NCBI GenBank assembly: GCA_903824515.1 | Contig: CAIJXA010000074.1 | Span: forward strand, 1 to 16,687 | Length of the DNA stretch: 16,687 bases | Direction of reading: 5' to 3' | Origin: an uncultured bacterium | GTDB taxonomy: Bacteria > Patescibacteriota > Minisyncoccia > Moranbacterales > GWC2-37-73 | Part shown: piece by piece, positions 1,878 to 15,693 of the stretch | Layout of the letters: every line of letters starts with the position of its first letter | Numbering within the stretch: position 1 is the stretch's first letter | The notes under the pieces: generated by a model | Seen by the model: the letters and a program-made list of their open reading frames with translations, nothing else | Databases searched by the model: none | What the model was told of the DNA's origin: nothing | Translations under genes and position numbers: made by a program

Positions 1878-2023
1878 GTGTGGTTTTTTAATTTTCAATT
1901 TTAAATTTAAAATTTTTAAACAATTCTCAAATATCAAATTTTAAAATTTTTAATTTCAGCTAAGGGCTGATCCGCCGAGGGCGGACATTTCAAATTTCAA
2001 ATTAAAAATTTCAAATTAATTTT
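1878..2023 (+). promoter_or_regulatory. AT-rich repeated-motif leader upstream of dnaE; shares AATTTTCAATTTTAAAT and AAATTTCAAATTTCAAATT motifs with the thrS upstream region
   Basis: Motifs at 1881-1900 and 1993-2016 recur in the same order at 10990-11012 and 11072-11092. A small GC hairpin TCCGCC-GAG-GGCGGA (about 1961-1975) is embedded. No SD precedes the dnaE ATG. Confidence 0.4.
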
Positions 2024-5000: not shown

Positions 5001-5638
5001 AAAAGATTCTGACCAAGCGCCAAGAAACCATGCTCTTTGTGATGCTGGAGGACATGAAAGGCAAAATCGAAATTTTGGTTTTTCCAAAAGTGTTGGAAAA
5101 AATGGGCAGCGCTTGGGAAGAAGAAAAAATGATTATCGCTGAAGGAAAACTTTCCGACAAAGACGGCGCTTATAAATTAATTTGCGACGAAGTCCGTAAT
5201 CTTGACCGCAATGAAATCGAAAATTATTTGCGCGTTGAGGCCACCAAAAAAACTTACGCCAATAAAAATGATGATGAAAATCCTCACGGCGGAGCTGGCG
5301 TGGTCAATGACCAACATAGTTCAGTAATCAGTAACCAGTCATCAGTAACTAGTCACCAGAATTCAACAAACAATAATCCAGCACTTCTAGAGGCTGAGCC
5401 CCTAAAAGCTAGCGAAGCTAAAAGCTATAAGCTAATTGTGACCCTTCCCCAGGATGCCAATTCTGAAATGATTAGCAAGCTTTCCAAAACTTTCAATACT
5501 TGCCCATCAGGGCAGTGTAAAGTTTTTTTGCATCACCAAGCCAACAAACTTGAAACGCCTTTTTCTATCGAAAGCCAACCAAATATTCTCGATGAAATCA
5601 AAAACATTATTGCCGGAGGAACGGTTGAATTGATTTAA
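2024..5638 (+). CDS. dnaE: DNA polymerase III alpha subunit (DnaE), with C-terminal extension
   Basis: 1204-aa ORF. N-terminal PHP domain HLHVHSHYSLLDG, polymerase core motifs (e.g. GCITNGSTKEIAEKVFSFIEPFAGYGFNRSHAACYAIIGYQTAYLKAHYP) and an OB-fold region near aa 980-1060. About 145 extra residues lie after the OB fold. Confidence 0.95.
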   Translation: MKYTHLHVHSHYSLLDGLGKIDDLMDRAKELGMDSIALTDHGVMYGAVELFIKAKEKGIKPIIGCEMYITPNDLHSKNPIAEDRKRHHLILLVKNEEGYHNLMKLVSIAHLEGFYYKPRIDRKVLRQYAKGLIGLSACVEGEIPSQIVMGNYDKAKQLALEYQDIFDKDGFFLEVQSHTKFSNQAIANEGIFKLGKELNIPVVATCDVHYVNKEDASAQDILLCVQTNRKVDEVDRMNLMDFDLSLRSPEEVLAGFPENPEVLSNTQLVVDQCDFKLKLGETQLPHFDVPEGHTATSYLVELCEKGLKKKYKVEEITDVHRERMAYELSVIEKCGYASYFLIVQDFVNWAKDNGIIVGPGRGSAAGSFISYLTGITNVDPIEYNLLFERFLNPERVSMPDVDMDFADNRRDDVLNYVRQKYGNDHVSQIITFGTMAARAAIRDTGRALGFPYDFCNKTSQMIPMFTSIKKAIEEVPEFKELYHNNKDGKKLIDSAMRLEGVIRHAGMHACGVVITKEPVTYYSPIQNITGSREGTVTQYSSSTKSSYVEKIGLLKMDFLGLKNLTIIQDTLRIAKKIHGVDIDIDTIPIDDPEAFKLLQEARTTGVFQLESSGMKRYLKLLKPTVIEDIIAMVALYRPGPMDWIPDFISGKHGRKIKYVHPKLEPILANTYGVAVYQEQVMQIARDLAGFTMGEADVLRKAMGKKIFELIKEQKIKFVEGCITNGSTKEIAEKVFSFIEPFAGYGFNRSHAACYAIIGYQTAYLKAHYPAAFMAALLTSDQDNIDRIAIEASECREMGIQVLAPDVNESFEDFAVITEEDGSQRIRFGFNAIKNVGHVIAHEIVEERKRGGKFKSLADFLTRVETKDLNKKSIDALAKVGALDELGERNQIIESMEQILMFTKSMQKQKNSNQVSLFGQAILETPTVPLIETQPASKRQQLRWEKELLGLYVSGHPAQEYQGYIEKVAVPLDKLSKEMVGQKIAVGGVIQKVQKILTKRQETMLFVMLEDMKGKIEILVFPKVLEKMGSAWEEEKMIIAEGKLSDKDGAYKLICDEVRNLDRNEIENYLRVEATKKTYANKNDDENPHGGAGVVNDQHSSVISNQSSVTSHQNSTNNNPALLEAEPLKASEAKSYKLIVTLPQDANSEMISKLSKTFNTCPSGQCKVFLHHQANKLETPFSIESQPNILDEIKNIIAGGTVELI
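5317..5365 (+). repeat. Seven tandem heptamers (TAGTTCA GTAATCA GTAACCA GTCATCA GTAACTA GTCACCA GAATTCA) inside the dnaE 3' region
   Basis: Read directly from the sequence. Encodes the low-complexity stretch HSSVISNQSSVTSHQNS in the DnaE C-terminal extension. Confidence 0.7.
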
Positions 5639-6901: not shown

Positions 6902-7465
6902 TTATTTTAACTTCAATTTAAAGTGCAGACACAATCCTGCTTCGTTTGTGAGATTCATTGCATCTCCGCACCTGACAAATCTGCGAATTTCATAAAACTC
7001 AACAATAAAGTTTATTTCATCTAGGCATGGATAAGGATGCACAAAAACAGATTTTTGAAGTTCAAAAAAATTTAACTCTTTCAGTTTTTCTCGTAGTACG
7101 TCCCGCCTATATTTCAGTTTTTCTGGGACATCAAACATAACGAGTCGCCACTTCCCGTCCCAATGAGATGGCTTCTTTATTTTTATTTGATGAATATGAA
7201 AATCCAAAATTTTCTTTTTGCCTTTCTCGGTGATCACAATCTTCACCGAGCCATCGGAGTTTTTGATGCCCCTAACTAATCTTTGTTGATAAAATTCCCG
7301 CACTGTGCGACGAAGATAATTTTCATCGATTGATTTCCAATCGCGCTTGGCAATTTTCAGCACCCGAAAATATTGCCTTGGCGATCCAGCTAGCCCAAGC
7401 GCAACGCCCGCTCCTAATAATAAAAGAATTTTTTGTTTTATCGGACTCTGAATTTTTCTACTCAT
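6902..7465 (-). CDS. Short PaaX-family transcriptional regulator (N-terminal wHTH plus PaaX middle/Cas2-like domain, no C-terminal domain)
   Basis: 187-aa ORF. The WDGKWRLVMFDVPEKLKYRRDVLREKLKELNFFELQKSVFVHP segment matches the PaaX WDGKW motif region (E. coli PaaX PAWDGKWLLLLSEGLD...GFGALAPS, quoted from memory). The N-terminus (ILLLLGAGVALGLAGSP...YLRRTVREF...DGSVKIVITEKGKK) looks like a winged helix. Confidence 0.65.
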   Translation of the reverse strand: MSRKIQSPIKQKILLLLGAGVALGLAGSPRQYFRVLKIAKRDWKSIDENYLRRTVREFYQQRLVRGIKNSDGSVKIVITEKGKKKILDFHIHQIKIKKPSHWDGKWRLVMFDVPEKLKYRRDVLREKLKELNFFELQKSVFVHPYPCLDEINFIVEFYEIRRFVRCGDAMNLTNEAGLCLHFKLKLK

Positions 7466-10959: not shown

Positions 10960-11122
10960 GCCTTTTATTTTTGCAAATTTTAAATTTGAAATTTTCAATT
11001 TTAAATGAAATCTAAATGATTCAATGTTTAAAAATTTATTATTGAAAAATTAAGAAATTGATTAAAAATTTTAAATTTCAAATTTCAAATTTTTTTAATT
11101 AAACATAAGCAACTAAACTATT
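10960..11122 (+). promoter_or_regulatory. AT-rich repeated-motif block between the T-box terminator and the thrS start; shares motifs with the dnaE upstream region
   Basis: GAAATTTTCAATTTTAAAT (10990-11012) and TTTCAAATTTCAAATTTTTTT (11072-11092) parallel 1881-1900 and 1993-2016. No SD precedes the ATG. Confidence 0.4.
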
Positions 11123-12936: not shown

Positions 12937-14382
12937 ATGAAATACTACATCAAAACCTTCGGTTGCCAAATGAACGTTTCAGACAGCCAGCGCTTAGCCA
13001 CCTTTTTGGAAGCGCAAGGTTTTTCGCAGAGCACTGAAATGGGTAGTGCGGAACTGGTCATCTTCAACACTTGCGGAGTCAAGCAAACCGCTGAGAATAG
13101 AGCTTACAGCCTGATTAATAACTTACGCAAAGCTGAAAAAGCATCCCGCTTAAAAGCTAAAAACTTTAAACTAACAGCTATCATCATGACGGGTTGCCTT
13201 GCCAATCGCACCGACGTACAAAAAAGAATGGAGACAAAAGTTGATTTATTTTGCGAAATCAAAAACTTTCCGCAAGATTTTCAAAAACTAAATTTTTGTC
13301 ATCTTGAGCGAAATTCTTCTGATGAAAATCAGAAAAATGAAGTCGAAGGATCTGAGTCTAATACTAATTACGACAACATAAGATTTCTCGACTTCGCTCG
13401 AAATGACAACAGTCGCGACTATCTCAGCATAGTTCCCAAACATCAAAATAGTTTTGAGGCCTACGTCCCAATCATGACGGGCTGCAACAATTTCTGCACT
13501 TATTGTGTGGTGCCAAATGCCCGTGGCCGTGAAGTTTCTCGTCCAGCTGAGGAAATCATCACTGAAGTCAAAAAACTCGTTTCCAAGGGTTATAAAAATA
13601 TTATTTTACTCGGGCAGAATGTAAATTCATATCGTGGAACGTGGAGCGTGGAGCGTGGAGCGTTAAATGCAAAAGCTAAAGAAAAAATTGTGACCTTTTC
13701 AACCCTTCTCAAGAAAATAAACGCTATTTCGGGCAAATTTTGGATTCAATTTGTTTCATCTCACCCAAAGGATATGAGCGACGAACTGATTGAAGTAATG
13801 ACAAAGTGCCAAAAAGTTTGTGAAAATATTCATTTACCCGTGCAAGCTGGCGACGATGAGATTCTGCAAAAAATGAACCGGCACTACACCCAGAAACACT
13901 ATCTTAATCTCATCAAGCAAATTAACCAAGCTTTCGAGAAAAATAAACCTGGAAAAATATTTTCAATTTCATCAGACATCATCGTCGGTTTCCCAGGCGA
14001 AACTCGCAAAAAATTTTTACAGTCAGCTGAGGTGATGGAAAAAGCAAAATTCGACATGGTTTTCTTCGGACAATTTTCACCCCGGCCTGAAACCGCCGCT
14101 TGGAAAATGAAAGACAATGTTTCTCAAAAAGAAAAAACCCGTCGCGAACAATATCTAAATGAAATTCTCAAAAGAACTGCATTTGAAAATAATCAAAAAT
14201 ATCTCAATCAAACAGTTGAAGTGCTGATCGAACAACAAAAAGAAGCTTCTTATTTCGGCAAAACCAGGACACTGAAAAACGTTAAGATCGCAACGAGCGA
14301 GAAAGATTTGCTCGGAAAAATCGTGAAAGTTAAGATTACTAAGGCCAACGTTTGGAATTTAGAAGGAGAAGCTTTAAAGTAG
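12937..14382 (+). CDS. miaB: tRNA-2-methylthio-N6-dimethylallyladenosine synthase (MiaB-type radical-SAM methylthiotransferase)
   Basis: 481-aa ORF. N-terminal MTTase domain (IKTFGCQMNVSDS...NTCGVKQTAEN), radical SAM CNNFCTYCVVP, C-terminal TRAM domain. Adjacent to miaA. The linker between MTTase and radical SAM domains is unusually long and low-complexity. Confidence 0.85.
   Translation: MKYYIKTFGCQMNVSDSQRLATFLEAQGFSQSTEMGSAELVIFNTCGVKQTAENRAYSLINNLRKAEKASRLKAKNFKLTAIIMTGCLANRTDVQKRMETKVDLFCEIKNFPQDFQKLNFCHLERNSSDENQKNEVEGSESNTNYDNIRFLDFARNDNSRDYLSIVPKHQNSFEAYVPIMTGCNNFCTYCVVPNARGREVSRPAEEIITEVKKLVSKGYKNIILLGQNVNSYRGTWSVERGALNAKAKEKIVTFSTLLKKINAISGKFWIQFVSSHPKDMSDELIEVMTKCQKVCENIHLPVQAGDDEILQKMNRHYTQKHYLNLIKQINQAFEKNKPGKIFSISSDIIVGFPGETRKKFLQSAEVMEKAKFDMVFFGQFSPRPETAAWKMKDNVSQKEKTRREQYLNEILKRTAFENNQKYLNQTVEVLIEQQKEASYFGKTRTLKNVKIATSEKDLLGKIVKVKITKANVWNLEGEALK
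13633..13663 (+). repeat. In-frame heptamer tandem array (CGTGGAA CGTGGAG CGTGGAG CGTGGAG CGT) inside miaB
   Basis: Read directly from the sequence. Encodes GTWSVERGA at a position where E. coli MiaB has a shorter loop (NVNAWRGENYDG...). Confidence 0.8.
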
Positions 14383-14607
14383 ATTTTAGATTTCTGATTT
14401 TGGAATTTTTGTATTTTGTGTTTGCATCTTGTATTTCTCCTGCACCATATGAAGTACGTAGGCGAAAAACAAGTGATGAGCGTTAAGAAATTTTCAGCGA
14501 GCTTTGTCAGCAGACAAAGTGCAGCGGGAATTTTAGCGAAGAATGCAGTTTTTGCCACAGTATCTTCATCCGGTGCGAGTTTTTCTTTCCTCCAGGTTTC
14601 TTTTTGC

Positions 14608-14694: not shown

Positions 14695-15693
14695 ATGGAA
14701 AAAAACAAACCAAAAATAATAGTCATCATGGGTCCCACTGCCTCAGGCAAATCAGGCGTGGCAATTAAACTTGCGCAGAAATTCGACGGCGAAATCATCT
14801 CCGCTGACAGTCGACAAATATACAAAGGACTCGACATTGGCTCAGGCAAAGTTTGTGGAGCGTGGAGCGTGGAGCGTGGAGCCTTTATTTCAGAAGGCAT
14901 CCCCCATCATTTGATTGATGTGGCTAAGCCTCAAGAAGATTTTAATGTAAGCCACTTCAAGAAACTGGCGCAAGAAAAAATTGGGGAAATTCTCAGTCGC
15001 AAAAAAGTTCCCATCATCTGCGGAGGAACGGCTTTTTGGATTGACACCTTGACTAAAAATTCCAACATTCCAGAAGTTGCCCCCAATGAAAAATTGCGAG
15101 CCAGACTTGCCAAGAAAAGTGTTGAGCAACTTTTTACCCAGCTTAAAAAACTCGATCCAGTCAGAGCAAGCGACATCGATGGTCAAAATAAGGTACGCCT
15201 CATTCGCGCAATTGAAATTTGCAAGGTGTTGGGCCATGTTCCAAAACGTGAAACGTGGAACGTGGAACGTGGAACGGAAAATACAAAATACGAGATACAA
15301 AATACAAAATACAACTTTCTAGAAATTGGAATTGAGGTGCCCAGGGAAATCCTGAACGCCAAAATCAAAAAACGTTTGGATGAACGTTTTGCCGAAGGCA
15401 TGACCCAAGAAGTTGAAAACCTGAATGAAAAGGGCGTTTCATGGCAGTGGTTGGAGCGCATCGGCTTGGAATATCGCTGGATTTCCAGATTTTTGCAAGG
15501 CAAAATAGAACTAGGAGAAATGTCCACCCAAGGCGTATGCACTTCGGGCGCAAAACAAAAATTATATTTTGACAGCATTCACTATGCCAAACGTCAAATG
15601 ACTTGGCTACAAAGAAACAAAAGTATTATTTGGCACAGCGATTATGAAGAAATTGAAAAAGAAGTTGAAAATTTCTTAGAACAAAATACTTAA
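14695..15693 (+). CDS. miaA: tRNA dimethylallyltransferase (MiaA)
   Basis: 332-aa ORF with P-loop GPTASGKSGVA and the signature DSRQIYKGLDIGSGK. Two insertions relative to canonical MiaA coincide with heptamer arrays. Confidence 0.9.
   Translation: MEKNKPKIIVIMGPTASGKSGVAIKLAQKFDGEIISADSRQIYKGLDIGSGKVCGAWSVERGAFISEGIPHHLIDVAKPQEDFNVSHFKKLAQEKIGEILSRKKVPIICGGTAFWIDTLTKNSNIPEVAPNEKLRARLAKKSVEQLFTQLKKLDPVRASDIDGQNKVRLIRAIEICKVLGHVPKRETWNVERGTENTKYEIQNTKYNFLEIGIEVPREILNAKIKKRLDERFAEGMTQEVENLNEKGVSWQWLERIGLEYRWISRFLQGKIELGEMSTQGVCTSGAKQKLYFDSIHYAKRQMTWLQRNKSIIWHSDYEEIEKEVENFLEQNT
14854..14881 (+). repeat. In-frame heptamer tandem array (TGTGGAG CGTGGAG CGTGGAG CGTGGAG) inside miaA (site 1)
   Basis: Encodes CGAWSVERGA between DIGSGKV and ISEGIPHHLID. 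It has the same unit as the miaB array. Confidence 0.8.
15247..15312 (+). repeat. Composite in-frame array inside miaA (site 2): 4 x CGTGRAA (15247-15274) immediately followed by 5 x AAAATAC/GAGATAC (15278-15312)
   Basis: Nine heptamers total 63 nt (21 codons) and encode ETWNVERGTENTKYEIQNTKYN, an insertion relative to E. coli MiaA. Confidence 0.8.

What the first reader, a model, noticed from the sequence alone, without database searches (positions are those of the whole stretch)
15278..15312. A second heptamer family (AAAATAC x5) is fused directly to the CGTGRAA array in miaA
Immediately 3' of the third CGTGRAA array lie five AAAATAC-type units (one GAGATAC variant). Together the nine units total 63 nt (21 codons) and are in frame. 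Two different heptamer families juxtaposed inside one essential gene suggest a general heptamer-expansion process rather than one element.
Basis: seen in the sequence. Interest (0 to 1): 0.55.

Follow-up and report, generated by a model that had tools for sequence, protein, structure and literature searches.

The report
In-frame heptamer microsatellite in miaA loop
Five 7-base repeats (AAAATAC) in the tRNA-modification gene miaA of an uncultured Moranbacteria bacterium are a real three-unit, frame-preserving expansion of a microsatellite that encodes a floppy protein loop, one of many such 7-base repeats in this lineage, and so an ordinary case of a known but unexplained bacterial phenomenon.

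Summary
Window 15278-15312 holds AAAATAC, AAAATAC, GAGATAC, AAAATAC, AAAATAC. These sit in the same 7-nt register as four GGAACGT-type units (15250-15277). The nine units are 63 nt and match codons 186-206 of miaA exactly.

It is neither chance nor an assembly artefact. No period-7 array reached TRF score 46 in 500 shuffles, against 60 observed. The same allele occurs on 11 contigs from several studies.

The organism is a Candidatus Moranbacteria (CPR) bacterium. In 159 kb from eleven related loci, period 7 dominates: 105 arrays against 6.4 expected, spread over many unit families.

The juxtaposition itself is old. A relative with 68% MiaA identity has four GGAGCAT units followed by AAAATGC AAAATAC at the same junction. 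The window differs by exactly +21 nt, or three units (2 to 5).

The tract encodes an unstructured, low-confidence loop. Relatives carry other heptamer families, or a palindromic mini-element, at the same site.

The most likely mechanism is slipped-strand expansion filtered for reading frame, with some ectopic copying between arrays. I found no sign of phase variation. This is a new lineage for a known kind of repeat, and interest is modest.

The parts
15278..15312 (+). The finding: five AARATAC-type heptamer units (AAAATAC x2, GAGATAC, AAAATAC x2). They encode residues 195-206 (ENTKYEIQNTKY) of MiaA. The last unit supplies the conserved Lys-Tyr before the beta-strand.
   Evidence: Y206 is nearly invariant in alignment A1. 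Three of the five units (21 nt) are extra relative to L092 and to all relatives with the same loop architecture.
15250..15277 (+). Four GGAACGT-type units (GAAACGT GGAACGT GGAACGT GGAACGG). This is the 'CGTGRAA' array read in the register shared with the AAAATAC block. It encodes ETWNVERGT(E).
   Evidence: L092 has GGAGCAT x3 + GGAGCAG at the same position with the same terminal G.
14695..15693 (+). miaA (tRNA dimethylallyltransferase), 332 aa, intact ORF that hosts three heptamer arrays.
   Evidence: Pfam IPPT, E = 2.6e-56. Best homologues are Candidatus Moranbacteria MiaA. PDB homologues include 2QGN, 3D3Q and 2ZM5.
14855..14882 (+). Perfect GTGGAGC x4 array (site 1 loop of MiaA, GAWSVERGA).
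   Evidence: TRF score 56. Identical in L085 and L090. Replaced by AAGATAC/AAAATAC arrays in L084, L087, L088, L091, L094 and L098.
13633..13663 (+). CGTGGAR x4.4 array in a hypervariable loop of the miaB-like radical-SAM methylthiotransferase (RGTWSVERGA).
14407..14436 (-). Degenerate intergenic array TTTTGTA x4.4. This is the reverse complement of the AAAATAC family and lies between miaB and miaA.
   Evidence: canonical unit AAAATAC, minus orientation.
14380..14401 (+). TAGATTT x3.1 array that overlaps the miaB stop codon and continues into the TTTTGTA tract.
5321..5359 (+). TCAGTAA/CAGTCAT array in the C-terminal linker of dnaE. The same family fills the MiaA site-2 loop in L087 and L091.
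   Evidence: There is a 42-nt (6-unit) length difference between L087/L091 and L088.
5402..5435 (+). CTAAAAG x4.6 array in dnaE.
   Evidence: conserved position in L087, L088 and L091.
1885..2019 (+). Intergenic TTTTAAA and ATTTCAA arrays upstream of dnaE.
10975..11092 (+). Intergenic AAATTTT and AAATTTC arrays upstream of thrS.

Best explanation
The AAAATAC x5 block is a heptanucleotide microsatellite. In this lineage it grew by three units (21 nt, 7 codons) from an older two-unit AAAATRC seed. That seed sits at the 3' end of a six-unit heptamer tract (four GGARCRT units plus two AAAATRC units) that encodes a surface loop of MiaA. The loop lies between the helix ending ...RAIEICKVLGxVP and the strand FLxIGI.

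Shown:
- The tract, its single 7-nt register and its exact fit to codons.
- The ancestral junction, and the length difference of exactly 21 nt.
- The strong period-7 excess in this Moranbacteria clade.
- Whole-unit indels between orthologous arrays.
- The unstructured, low-confidence nature of the encoded loop.

Inferred:
- The units are added by slipped-strand mispairing during replication or repair. This clade favours 7-nt slips for a reason not yet known.
- In coding DNA only changes of 3n units survive, or one unit plus a compensating indel. Because 7 and 3 share no factor, such a tract encodes the same cyclic heptapeptide (KIQNTKY) in every frame and is tolerated wherever a loop accepts a hydrophilic peptide.
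- The block has no function of its own. It is near-neutral filler in a loop that turns over rapidly.
For: Array reality:
- TRF gives period 7, score 60. None of 500 shuffles reached 46.
- The same allele is found in independent assemblies.

Ancestral seed and the +21 nt difference:
- L092 site 2 reads AAAAAT GGAGCAT x3 GGAGCAG AAAATGC AAAATAC AAT (51 nt).
- The window reads AAACGT GAAACGT GGAACGT x2 GGAACGG (AARATAC x5) AAC (72 nt).
- Seven relatives have 16 residues where the window has 23.
- The last unit encodes the conserved K-Y.

General process:
- Period-7 excess is 13 vs 0.46 in the window and 105 vs 6.35 in the clade.
- Perfect runs of at least 3 units number 15 for period 7 and 0-1 for periods 5, 6 and 8-12.
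- The clade has 6.6 arrays per 10 kb, against 1.1 per 10 kb in 1.28 Mb of other Patescibacteria.

Unit-wise indels in coding DNA: 21 nt (L088 vs L091, site 1), 42 nt (dnaE), and 7+20 or 28+20 nt as compensated pairs.

Concerted evolution inside arrays: all units are CGTGGAG in some lineages and CATGGAG in others.

Tolerance:
- In the AlphaFold2 model, residues 187-199 have pLDDT below 50 and residues 180-206 have no secondary structure.
- Solved MiaA structures are 10 residues shorter at this point.
- Relatives fill the same loop with AGTAACT, CAGTCAT or TCACAGT tracts or with a palindromic element.

No overlapping feature: nothing in Rfam, no promoter or terminator excess, RNA fold z-score -0.42, and no Pfam family for the antisense ORFs.

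Precedent: heptamer SSR over-representation in bacteria, with a polymerase-slippage hypothesis (PMC4692102, citing Mrazek et al. 2007).
Against: - The middle unit GAGATAC differs from its neighbours at two positions. It is identical to a unit in the site-1 array of L091, and GAGAAAC occurs in L090. Pure local slippage would give identical units, so an ectopic template is possible.
- Identical unit families (CGTGGAG, AARATAC, CAGTCAT) recur at unlinked sites. Local slippage alone does not explain this.
- No intermediate allele (3 or 4 units) and no population polymorphism was seen, so the slippage step itself is unobserved.
- The closest relative by nucleotide identity (L084, 88%) has a different family at this loop. 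The history therefore includes replacement or recombination, not only expansion.
- The period-7 excess was measured only on syntenic neighbourhoods totalling 159 kb, not on a whole genome.
Confidence: 0.68

Rival explanations
1. Ectopic copying. The three extra units were templated from another AARATAC array elsewhere in the genome, by gene conversion, template switching or a small mobile composite, rather than by local slippage.
For: - A composite of about 75 nt (AAGAWAC units + CAATAAC + the palindrome CCTGCCTACCGGCAGGCAGG + AAATTTC-type units) is present in miaA site 1 of L087 and in the miaB loop of L091. These genomes are about 95% identical elsewhere.
- The same families occur at several loci: CGTGGAG in miaB, both miaA sites and an L085 intergenic spacer; AARATAC in miaA sites 1 and 2 and reverse-complemented in spacers.
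- The GAGATAC variant unit is shared with the L091 site-1 array.
- Site-1 and site-2 arrays carry the same G or A variant within a lineage.
Against: - A two-unit seed already lies at exactly this junction in L092, and in relatives with the same loop architecture.
- The length change is a whole number of units in the existing register.
- No donor copy of the 21-35 nt block exists in the window. The only other family member, at 14407-14436, is degenerate and inverted.
Confidence: 0.2
2. Phase-variable contingency locus. Gain or loss of one heptamer shifts the miaA frame and switches tRNA i6A37 modification off and on, as the AAGACTC repeats do in E. coli K1 neuO.
For: A 7-nt unit inside a coding sequence gives full-length protein only for certain copy numbers. 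This is the arithmetic behind neuO phase variation (PMC13001214). Loss of miaA has global translational effects in model bacteria (my own knowledge).
Against: - The allele is identical on 11 contigs from several studies, and the 90% cluster has no length variant.
- Every orthologue examined is in frame.
- The tract is short and interrupted, with at most two perfect units in a row. neuO carries 3-53 repeats (PMC13001214).
- Similar arrays sit in dnaE, miaB and intergenic DNA, which argues against a locus-specific switch.
Confidence: 0.04
3. Selected protein feature. The extra heptapeptide (EIQNTKY) and the whole 21-residue loop were retained because they alter MiaA function, for example tRNA contact or partner binding.
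For: A GAWS(V/M)E(R/H)G-type peptide followed by xNxKY is kept at this loop in many relatives at 60-70% identity. The loop follows the last helix of the region that aligns with the helical insertion domain of solved MiaA structures.
Against: - Loop content is replaced wholesale between close relatives. L088 and L098 are 91% identical in miaA, yet one has a heptamer tract and the other a palindromic element.
- Conservation is at the DNA-repeat level, with concerted G/A change in all units, rather than at the peptide level.
- Model confidence is low and there is no secondary structure.
Confidence: 0.08
4. Sequencing or assembly artefact, or a chance low-complexity run.
For: Short repeats can be mis-assembled. 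The region is A-rich.
Against: - None of 500 shuffles reached the score.
- The sequence is identical in independent assemblies made with different assemblers and samples.
- The ORF is intact.
- Homologous tracts exist in relatives.
Confidence: 0.01

Closest known systems
Over-represented heptanucleotide simple sequence repeats in prokaryotic genomes (Mrazek, Guo & Shah 2007, as summarised in PMC4692102)
   Same: Tandem 7-nt units in strong excess over neighbouring periods. Length varies between relatives. Polymerase slippage is the proposed cause, and the reason for a period of 7 is unknown.
   Different: Described mainly for intergenic DNA in proteobacteria and cyanobacteria. Here the lineage is a Moranbacteria (CPR) clade, and several arrays lie in frame inside conserved housekeeping genes.
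Cyanobacterial STRR families (Calothrix/Nostoc/Anabaena short tandemly repeated repetitive sequences) and Xanthomonas/Nostoc GGGAATC-type repeats (PMC4692102)
   Same: Several distinct heptamer unit families, each dispersed at many loci in a genome, with array length and sequence varying between close relatives.
   Different: The unit sequences differ: STRR1-3 are CCCCAGT, TTGGTCA and CAACAGT (my own knowledge), and the G-rich ones can form quadruplexes. They are overwhelmingly intergenic, and no frame constraint has been discussed.
TAACTGA direct repeats of Beggiatoaceae, cyanobacteria and Bacteroidetes (MacGregor 2015, PMC4679880)
   Same: Heptamer direct repeats of 2-6 copies. A minority lie inside ORFs, where the reverse orientation reads as a repeating heptapeptide (LSVISYQ). 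The dispersal mechanism is unknown. The window's TCAGTAA family is one base away from TCAGTTA, the reverse complement of TAACTGA.
   Different: A single dominant unit, mostly just upstream of start codons, with a proposed role in translational regulation. Copies in ORFs are mostly at protein termini or in hypothetical proteins. Here there are many unit families, in internal loops of conserved enzymes.
neuO heptanucleotide (AAGACTC) phase variation in E. coli K1 (PMC13001214)
   Same: A 7-nt tandem repeat inside a coding sequence. The protein is full-length only when the count fits the frame. Slippage is the mechanism.
   Different: neuO tracts are long (3-53 units), perfect and polymorphic, with about two thirds of genomes out of frame. 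The miaA tract is short, interrupted, fixed and always in frame.
Rickettsia palindromic elements (in-frame selfish DNA in protein-coding genes; my own knowledge) and Borg amino-acid tandem repeats (PMC9879509)
   Same: Repetitive DNA is tolerated inside ORFs because it lands in surface or disordered regions. Rapid turnover creates new loops.
   Different: RPEs are 100-150-bp palindromic elements, not tandem heptamers. All Borg tandem repeats in ORFs have unit lengths divisible by three, whereas here the unit is not, so frame is kept by the number of units.

Membership tests
Heptanucleotide SSR (slipped-strand microsatellite) | At least 3 head-to-tail copies of a 7-nt unit, beyond chance | tested here: met
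   TRF gives 5.3 copies, score 60. In 500 shuffles the best period-7 score was 38.
Heptanucleotide SSR (slipped-strand microsatellite) | Orthologous arrays differ by whole units | tested here: met
   The window differs from L092-type loops by +21 nt, or 3 units. Elsewhere the differences are 21, 42, 7 and 28 nt.
Heptanucleotide SSR (slipped-strand microsatellite) | Copy-number polymorphism within a population | tested here: inconclusive
   Eleven contigs and three aligned assemblies carry the same 5-unit allele. Consensus assemblies cannot show minority alleles, and reads were not available.
Genome-wide heptamer excess (Mrazek-type) | Period 7 over-represented relative to periods 6 and 8 and to shuffled sequence | tested here: met
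   Period 7 gives 13 vs 0.46 in the window and 105 vs 6.35 in 159 kb of the clade, against 8 for period 6 and 36 for period 8. Perfect runs number 15 for period 7 and 0-1 for periods 5, 6 and 8-12. Only syntenic neighbourhoods were sampled.
STRR-like dispersed heptamer families | The same unit recurs at several unlinked loci | tested here: met
   AARATAC occurs in miaA sites 1 and 2, in the miaB loop and downstream of miaB, and inverted in spacers. CGTGGAG occurs in miaB, both miaA sites and L085:19676.
STRR-like dispersed heptamer families | Unit sequence is STRR1-3 (CCCCAGT, TTGGTCA, CAACAGT) | tested here: not met
   The units here are AAAATAC/GAGATAC and GGAACGT. The STRR unit sequences are recalled from memory (Mazel et al. 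1990), not checked in a paper.
neuO-type phase-variable coding repeat | Out-of-frame alleles among close relatives or populations | tested here: not met
   All alleles and orthologues are in frame. In neuO, 65.6% of genomes are out of frame (PMC13001214).
neuO-type phase-variable coding repeat | Long uninterrupted tract | tested here: not met
   The longest perfect run in the AAAATAC block is two units plus two bases, interrupted by GAGATAC.
RPE-like in-frame palindromic element | Inverted-repeat (hairpin) structure | tested here: not met
   RNA fold z-score is -0.42 and the AAAATAC block is unpaired. In contrast, the L098 insert at the same loop folds at -37 kcal/mol.
RPE-like in-frame palindromic element | Sits in a tolerant surface loop of a conserved protein | tested here: met
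   pLDDT is below 50 for residues 187-199, with no secondary structure in 180-206. There is a 10-residue gap in 2QGN and 3D3Q.
Borg-type amino-acid tandem repeats | Unit length divisible by three | tested here: not met
   The unit is 7 nt. Frame is kept by a total of nine units, or 63 nt. The Borg rule is taken from PMC9879509.

The most novel reading that the evidence does not exclude
This Moranbacteria clade may have a lineage-specific mutational system. It would generate 7-nt tandem duplications at high rate, whatever the sequence, and copy array segments between loci. Loops of housekeeping proteins (MiaA, MiaB, DnaE) would then be continually rewritten with 'frame-proof' heptamer tracts, since every frame gives the same heptapeptide. 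Because 7 is 1 modulo 3, the arrays could also act as frameshift buffers that rescue out-of-frame insertions of other mini-elements. The 20-nt palindrome paired with +7 or +28 nt in L087 miaA would be an example.
Probability: 0.2. Interest if true: 0.65.

Novelty: new member of a known kind. Interest (0 to 1): 0.38.

Why it matters
The excess of heptanucleotide repeats in bacteria has been known since 1990 and 2007, but it has no accepted mechanism. A small-genome CPR lineage would be a compact natural system for studying it. In this clade the excess is about 16-fold. Arrays grow by whole units, are homogenised within arrays, and are copied between genes. The frame filter (3 units, or 1 unit plus a compensating indel) can be read directly from orthologue comparisons.

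There is also a practical point. Many length differences and 'insertions' in CPR housekeeping proteins may be neutral repeat-derived loops rather than functional domains. This matters for annotation, for phylogenetic markers and for structure prediction. The array itself is unlikely to have a function.

Tried and rejected
1. Genome-contig scan with the MiaA alignment. These served as a 1.28-Mb Patescibacteria background but gave no close relatives.
2. Metagenome-contig scan with the protein. It returned only 4 loci, one a duplicate of L085.
3. Searches with synthetic heptapeptide repeats (KIQNTKY)x6 and (RGAWSVE)x6. They returned only 36-74-aa hypothetical ORFs laid over long arrays. One checked contig (L097) is an unrelated low-coding AT-rich sequence. 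These searches say nothing about host range or which genes carry the families.
4. DNA for P0002 and P0016, the relatives with the most similar loop (RETQNLERGAWNTKY), is not held. The 2-to-5-unit inference therefore rests on L092 DNA plus protein alignments.
5. Gap-length statistics from protein alignments of dnaE, thrS, miaB and miaA were too noisy in repetitive loops to test a 7-aa or 14-aa bias. TRF copy numbers do not differ between coding arrays (4.0-5.4) and intergenic arrays (2.1-4.6).
6. Rfam, promoter/terminator scan, RNA folding and Pfam on antisense ORFs found nothing overlapping the array.
7. The split dnaE in L087 looked like a possible heptamer frameshift. It is a 1-nt deletion in an A-run about 385 nt upstream of the array.
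8. Literature searches for heptamer repeats in CPR, Patescibacteria or Moranbacteria found no report.
Full report
**What is at the coordinates**

Window 15278-15312 reads AAAATAC AAAATAC GAGATAC AAAATAC AAAATAC. TRF calls 15278-15314 a period-7 array with 5.3 copies and score 60. The adjoining 15244-15280 is a period-7 array with 5.4 copies.

The block lies in the 332-aa ORF at 14695-15693. This is MiaA: Pfam IPPT at E = 2.6e-56, with solved homologues 2QGN, 3D3Q and 2ZM5.

In the register GAAACGT GGAACGT GGAACGT GGAACGG, the upstream family abuts the first AAAATAC with no spacer. The nine units span 15250-15312, which is 63 nt. They start at the first base of codon 186 and end at the third base of codon 206 (ETWNVERGTENTKYEIQNTKY).

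**Chance and artefact**

In 500 dinucleotide-preserving shuffles of the window, no period-7 array exceeded TRF score 38.

The exact MiaA protein is encoded on contigs from several independent ENA assemblies. Three of them (L001-L003) align to the window at 99.99-100% identity with no indel. The 90%-identity protein cluster holds only this sequence (7 contigs) and the same protein called from a later start (4 contigs). It contains no length variant.

The array is real. At consensus level its copy number is fixed.

**Organism and genomic background**

The best MiaA homologues, at 55-81% identity, are from Candidatus Moranbacteria MAGs. The window also carries a Band-7 gene, dnaE, a PaaX/Cas2-like gene, thrS and a miaB-like gene.

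Period counts in the window:

| Period | Observed | Expected from shuffles |
|---|---|---|
| 6 | 0 | 0.2 |
| 7 | 13 | 0.46 |
| 8 | 2 | 0.53 |
| 14 | 4 | 0.09 |

I fetched syntenic loci of relatives: L084, L085, L087, L088, L090, L091, L092, L094-L096 and L098. Period 7 is the most common TRF period in every one of them.

Pooled counts over 158.9 kb:

| Period | Observed | Expected |
|---|---|---|
| 6 | 8 | 2.55 |
| 7 | 105 | 6.35 |
| 8 | 36 | 6.8 |
| 9 | 31 | 6.75 |
| 14 | 25 | 1.25 |
| 21 | 5 | 0.25 |

Perfect runs of at least 3 units number 15 for period 7, 1 for period 6, and none for periods 5 and 8-12.

A background of 80 other Patescibacteria miaA neighbourhoods (1.28 Mb) has 1.1 period-7 arrays per 10 kb. 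The clade has 6.6 and the window 7.8. The background holds only 7 perfect runs.

More than 20 unit sequences are involved. Seven of the 13 arrays in the window are intergenic and six are in genes (dnaE x2, miaB, miaA x3). These loci are orthologous neighbourhoods, so the counts are not independent samples of whole genomes.

**History of this particular tract**

L092 has 68% MiaA identity with the window. Between the conserved Val-Pro and the FLxIGI strand the two sequences read as follows:

| Locus | Sequence | Length |
|---|---|---|
| L092 | AAAAAT GGAGCAT GGAGCAT GGAGCAT GGAGCAG AAAATGC AAAATAC AAT | 51 nt |
| Window | AAACGT GAAACGT GGAACGT GGAACGT GGAACGG AAAATAC AAAATAC GAGATAC AAAATAC AAAATAC AAC | 72 nt |

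The register is the same. There are four units of the first family in both, and the fourth unit ends in G in both. The two families share the same junction. The only length difference is 21 nt, or three AAAATAC-type units.

At protein level, seven relatives with this architecture have 16 residues where the window has 23. Examples are RETQNLERGAWNTKY, NGAWSMEHGAENAKY and HKTWSMEHGASNKEY. The final AAA TAC encodes Lys-Tyr, and the Tyr is nearly invariant.

So the juxtaposition of the two families is ancestral. The window-specific event is a 2-to-5-unit, frame-preserving expansion.

Other clade members have six units (42 nt) of different families at the same loop, always ending in AAAATAC or AAAATAT:
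- AGTAACT type in L084, L085, L090 and L094
- CAGTCAT type in L087 and L091
- TCACAGT type in L095

L098 is 91% identical to L088 in miaA. It instead has a 111-nt nested-palindrome insert with a predicted folding energy of -37 kcal/mol. The loop turns over quickly.

**Evidence for unit-wise change and for copying between arrays**

Between close relatives, coding arrays differ as follows:

| Comparison | Location | Difference |
|---|---|---|
| L087/L091 vs L088 | dnaE | 42 nt (6 units) |
| L088 vs L091 | miaA site 1 | 21 nt (3 units) |
| L087 vs L088 | miaA site 1 | +7 nt plus a 20-nt palindrome CCTGCCTACCGGCAGGCAGG (27 nt in all) |
| L087 vs L091 | miaA site 1 | +28 nt plus the same 20 nt (48 nt in all) |

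Single-unit and four-unit changes thus appear only where a second indel restores the frame.

Units within an array evolve in concert. All units are CGTGGAG in the window, L085 and L090, and all are CATGGAG in L092 and, judging from the peptides, in several others. The same variant is found at both MiaA loops of a lineage.

One composite of about 75 nt contains heptamer units, the palindrome and further heptamer units. It is present in miaA site 1 of L087 and in the miaB loop of L091 with two mismatches. Array segments are therefore copied between genes.

This may also explain why CGTGGAG occurs at three sites within 2 kb of the window. It could equally explain why the odd GAGATAC unit matches a unit in the site-1 array of L091.

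**Why the tract is tolerated**

An AlphaFold2 model built on a 32-sequence alignment has mean pLDDT 81.8. It shows no secondary structure for residues 180-206, and pLDDT is below 50 for residues 187-199. The next strand (207-213) starts immediately after the array.

Solved MiaA proteins are shorter by 8, 10 and 10 residues at the three variable loops.

Seven and three share no factor, so three heptamers read as the same cyclic heptapeptide in every frame. AAAATAC gives K-I-Q-N-T-K-Y and CGTGGAG gives R-G-A-W-S-V-E. Both are free of stop codons and hydrophilic. This follows directly from the sequence.

**Other features looked for**

- Rfam found no family in the window.
- Promoter-like and terminator-like sites are not in excess, and none overlaps the array.
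- The RNA fold is no better than shuffles (z = -0.42), and the AAAATAC block is unpaired.
- The antisense and alternative-frame ORFs match no Pfam family.

**Mechanism**

The best-supported reading is slipped-strand expansion of a heptanucleotide microsatellite, followed by selection for reading frame, in a lineage with a strong but unexplained bias towards 7-nt slips. The tract is near-neutral loop filler.

The repeat anatomy, the excess, the whole-unit indels, the ancestral seed and the disordered loop are shown. The slippage event itself, neutrality and the cause of the period-7 bias are inferred. The only published idea I found for the bias is that it reflects the polymerase footprint (PMC4692102, citing Mrazek et al. 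2007).

Ectopic copying is a serious alternative for the source of the three added units. A neuO-like phase switch (PMC13001214) is unlikely, because the tract is short, interrupted, fixed and always in frame. Only read-level data can exclude it.

**Comparison with known systems**

The tract works like a heptanucleotide SSR. The clade's repeat landscape resembles several known systems:
- cyanobacterial STRRs
- the Xanthomonas/Nostoc GGGAATC-type repeats (PMC4692102)
- the TAACTGA repeats of Beggiatoaceae, cyanobacteria and Bacteroidetes, some of which lie in ORFs and read as LSVISYQ (PMC4679880)

It differs from these in lineage (CPR), in unit sequences, and in sitting inside internal loops of conserved enzymes.

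It differs from Borg tandem repeats, whose units in ORFs are always divisible by three (PMC9879509). It also differs from palindromic in-frame elements of the Rickettsia RPE kind, although such palindromic mini-elements coexist with the arrays in these genes.

Three full-text searches found no report of heptamer repeats in CPR bacteria.

**Verdict**

This is a new lineage for a known, mechanistically unexplained kind of repeat. The array itself is ordinary and probably has no function. The clade-wide pattern is modestly interesting as a system for studying heptamer slippage and frame filtering.

Noticed in passing
L087:10208-10227 (miaA), L087:8581-8601 and L091:8383-8403 (miaB), L091:8912-8931 (miaB loop), L088:9856-9875, L085:158-178; also L041, L074, L077, L008: A 20-21-nt mini-palindrome CCTGCCTRYCGG(N)YAGGCAGG is dispersed in these Moranbacteria and in other Patescibacteria loci. 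It is often inside coding sequence, where it reads as PAYRQAG. In L087 miaA its 20 nt are paired with +7 or +28 nt of heptamer units, so the frame is kept.
   Followed up: partly
L098:10598-10708 (miaA site 2); by peptide also P0023, P0073, P0097 and P0105 in alignment A1: A nested-palindrome insert of about 90-110 nt (peptide CHPEL/F..SGS...KQV(R/Q)xD, MFE -37 kcal/mol) occupies the same MiaA loop in some relatives. It resembles an in-frame palindromic element of the Rickettsia RPE kind.
   Followed up: partly
window 13633-13695 and the orthologous miaB loops (L084:5202-5306, L091:8870-9109, L095:212-412, L096:3798-3878): The loop after GQNVNSY in the miaB-like methylthiotransferase is hypervariable, from 42 to 240 nt. 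It contains CGTGGAR-type arrays, AAGAAAC arrays and short palindromes (TCTTCTCC...GGAGAAGA; GTCCGGTACTCCGGAC).
   Followed up: partly
window 15520-15555 (MiaA residues 276-287, MSTQGVCTSGAK): A third insertion of about 10-12 residues in MiaA is present in only some lineages (MSTQGGCASGAK-type peptides in P0003, P0007, P0008, P0009, P0023 and P0043). It is not heptamer-periodic, and its origin is unknown.
   Followed up: no
window 14855-14882 vs 15250-15277; L092 miaA sites 1 and 2: The arrays at the two MiaA loops carry the same unit variant within a lineage (CGTGGAR in the window, CATGGAG in L092 and, by peptide, in P0009 and P0039). This suggests exchange or concerted evolution between arrays about 400 nt apart.
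   Followed up: partly
window 5321-5359 and 5402-5435 (dnaE C-terminal region): The replicative polymerase gene itself carries two heptamer arrays in a variable linker. Relatives differ there by 42 nt, and dnaE length ranges from 1200 to 1229 aa.
   Followed up: partly
L087:1938 (dnaE): dnaE is called as two ORFs in L087 because of a 1-nt deletion in an A-run relative to L091. This may be an assembly error or a real frameshift. It is unrelated to the heptamer arrays.
   Followed up: yes
L090:12605-14528: A diversity-generating-retroelement-like pair (reverse transcriptase RVT_1 plus bAvd-like accessory gene), with a Peptidase_S74-domain gene next to it, lies about 0.2-3.6 kb downstream of miaA in one relative.
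   Followed up: no
window 6902-7465 (- strand): A 187-aa protein with a PaaX central Cas2-like domain is conserved in L087, L088 and L098. No CRISPR array is evident in the window.
   Followed up: no
window 5321-5348 (TCAGTAA units): This unit is one base away from TCAGTTA, the reverse complement of the TAACTGA repeat described in Beggiatoaceae, cyanobacteria and Bacteroidetes. The L087 loop starts with CAACAGT, which is the STRR3 unit as I recall it. This could be coincidence.
   Followed up: no
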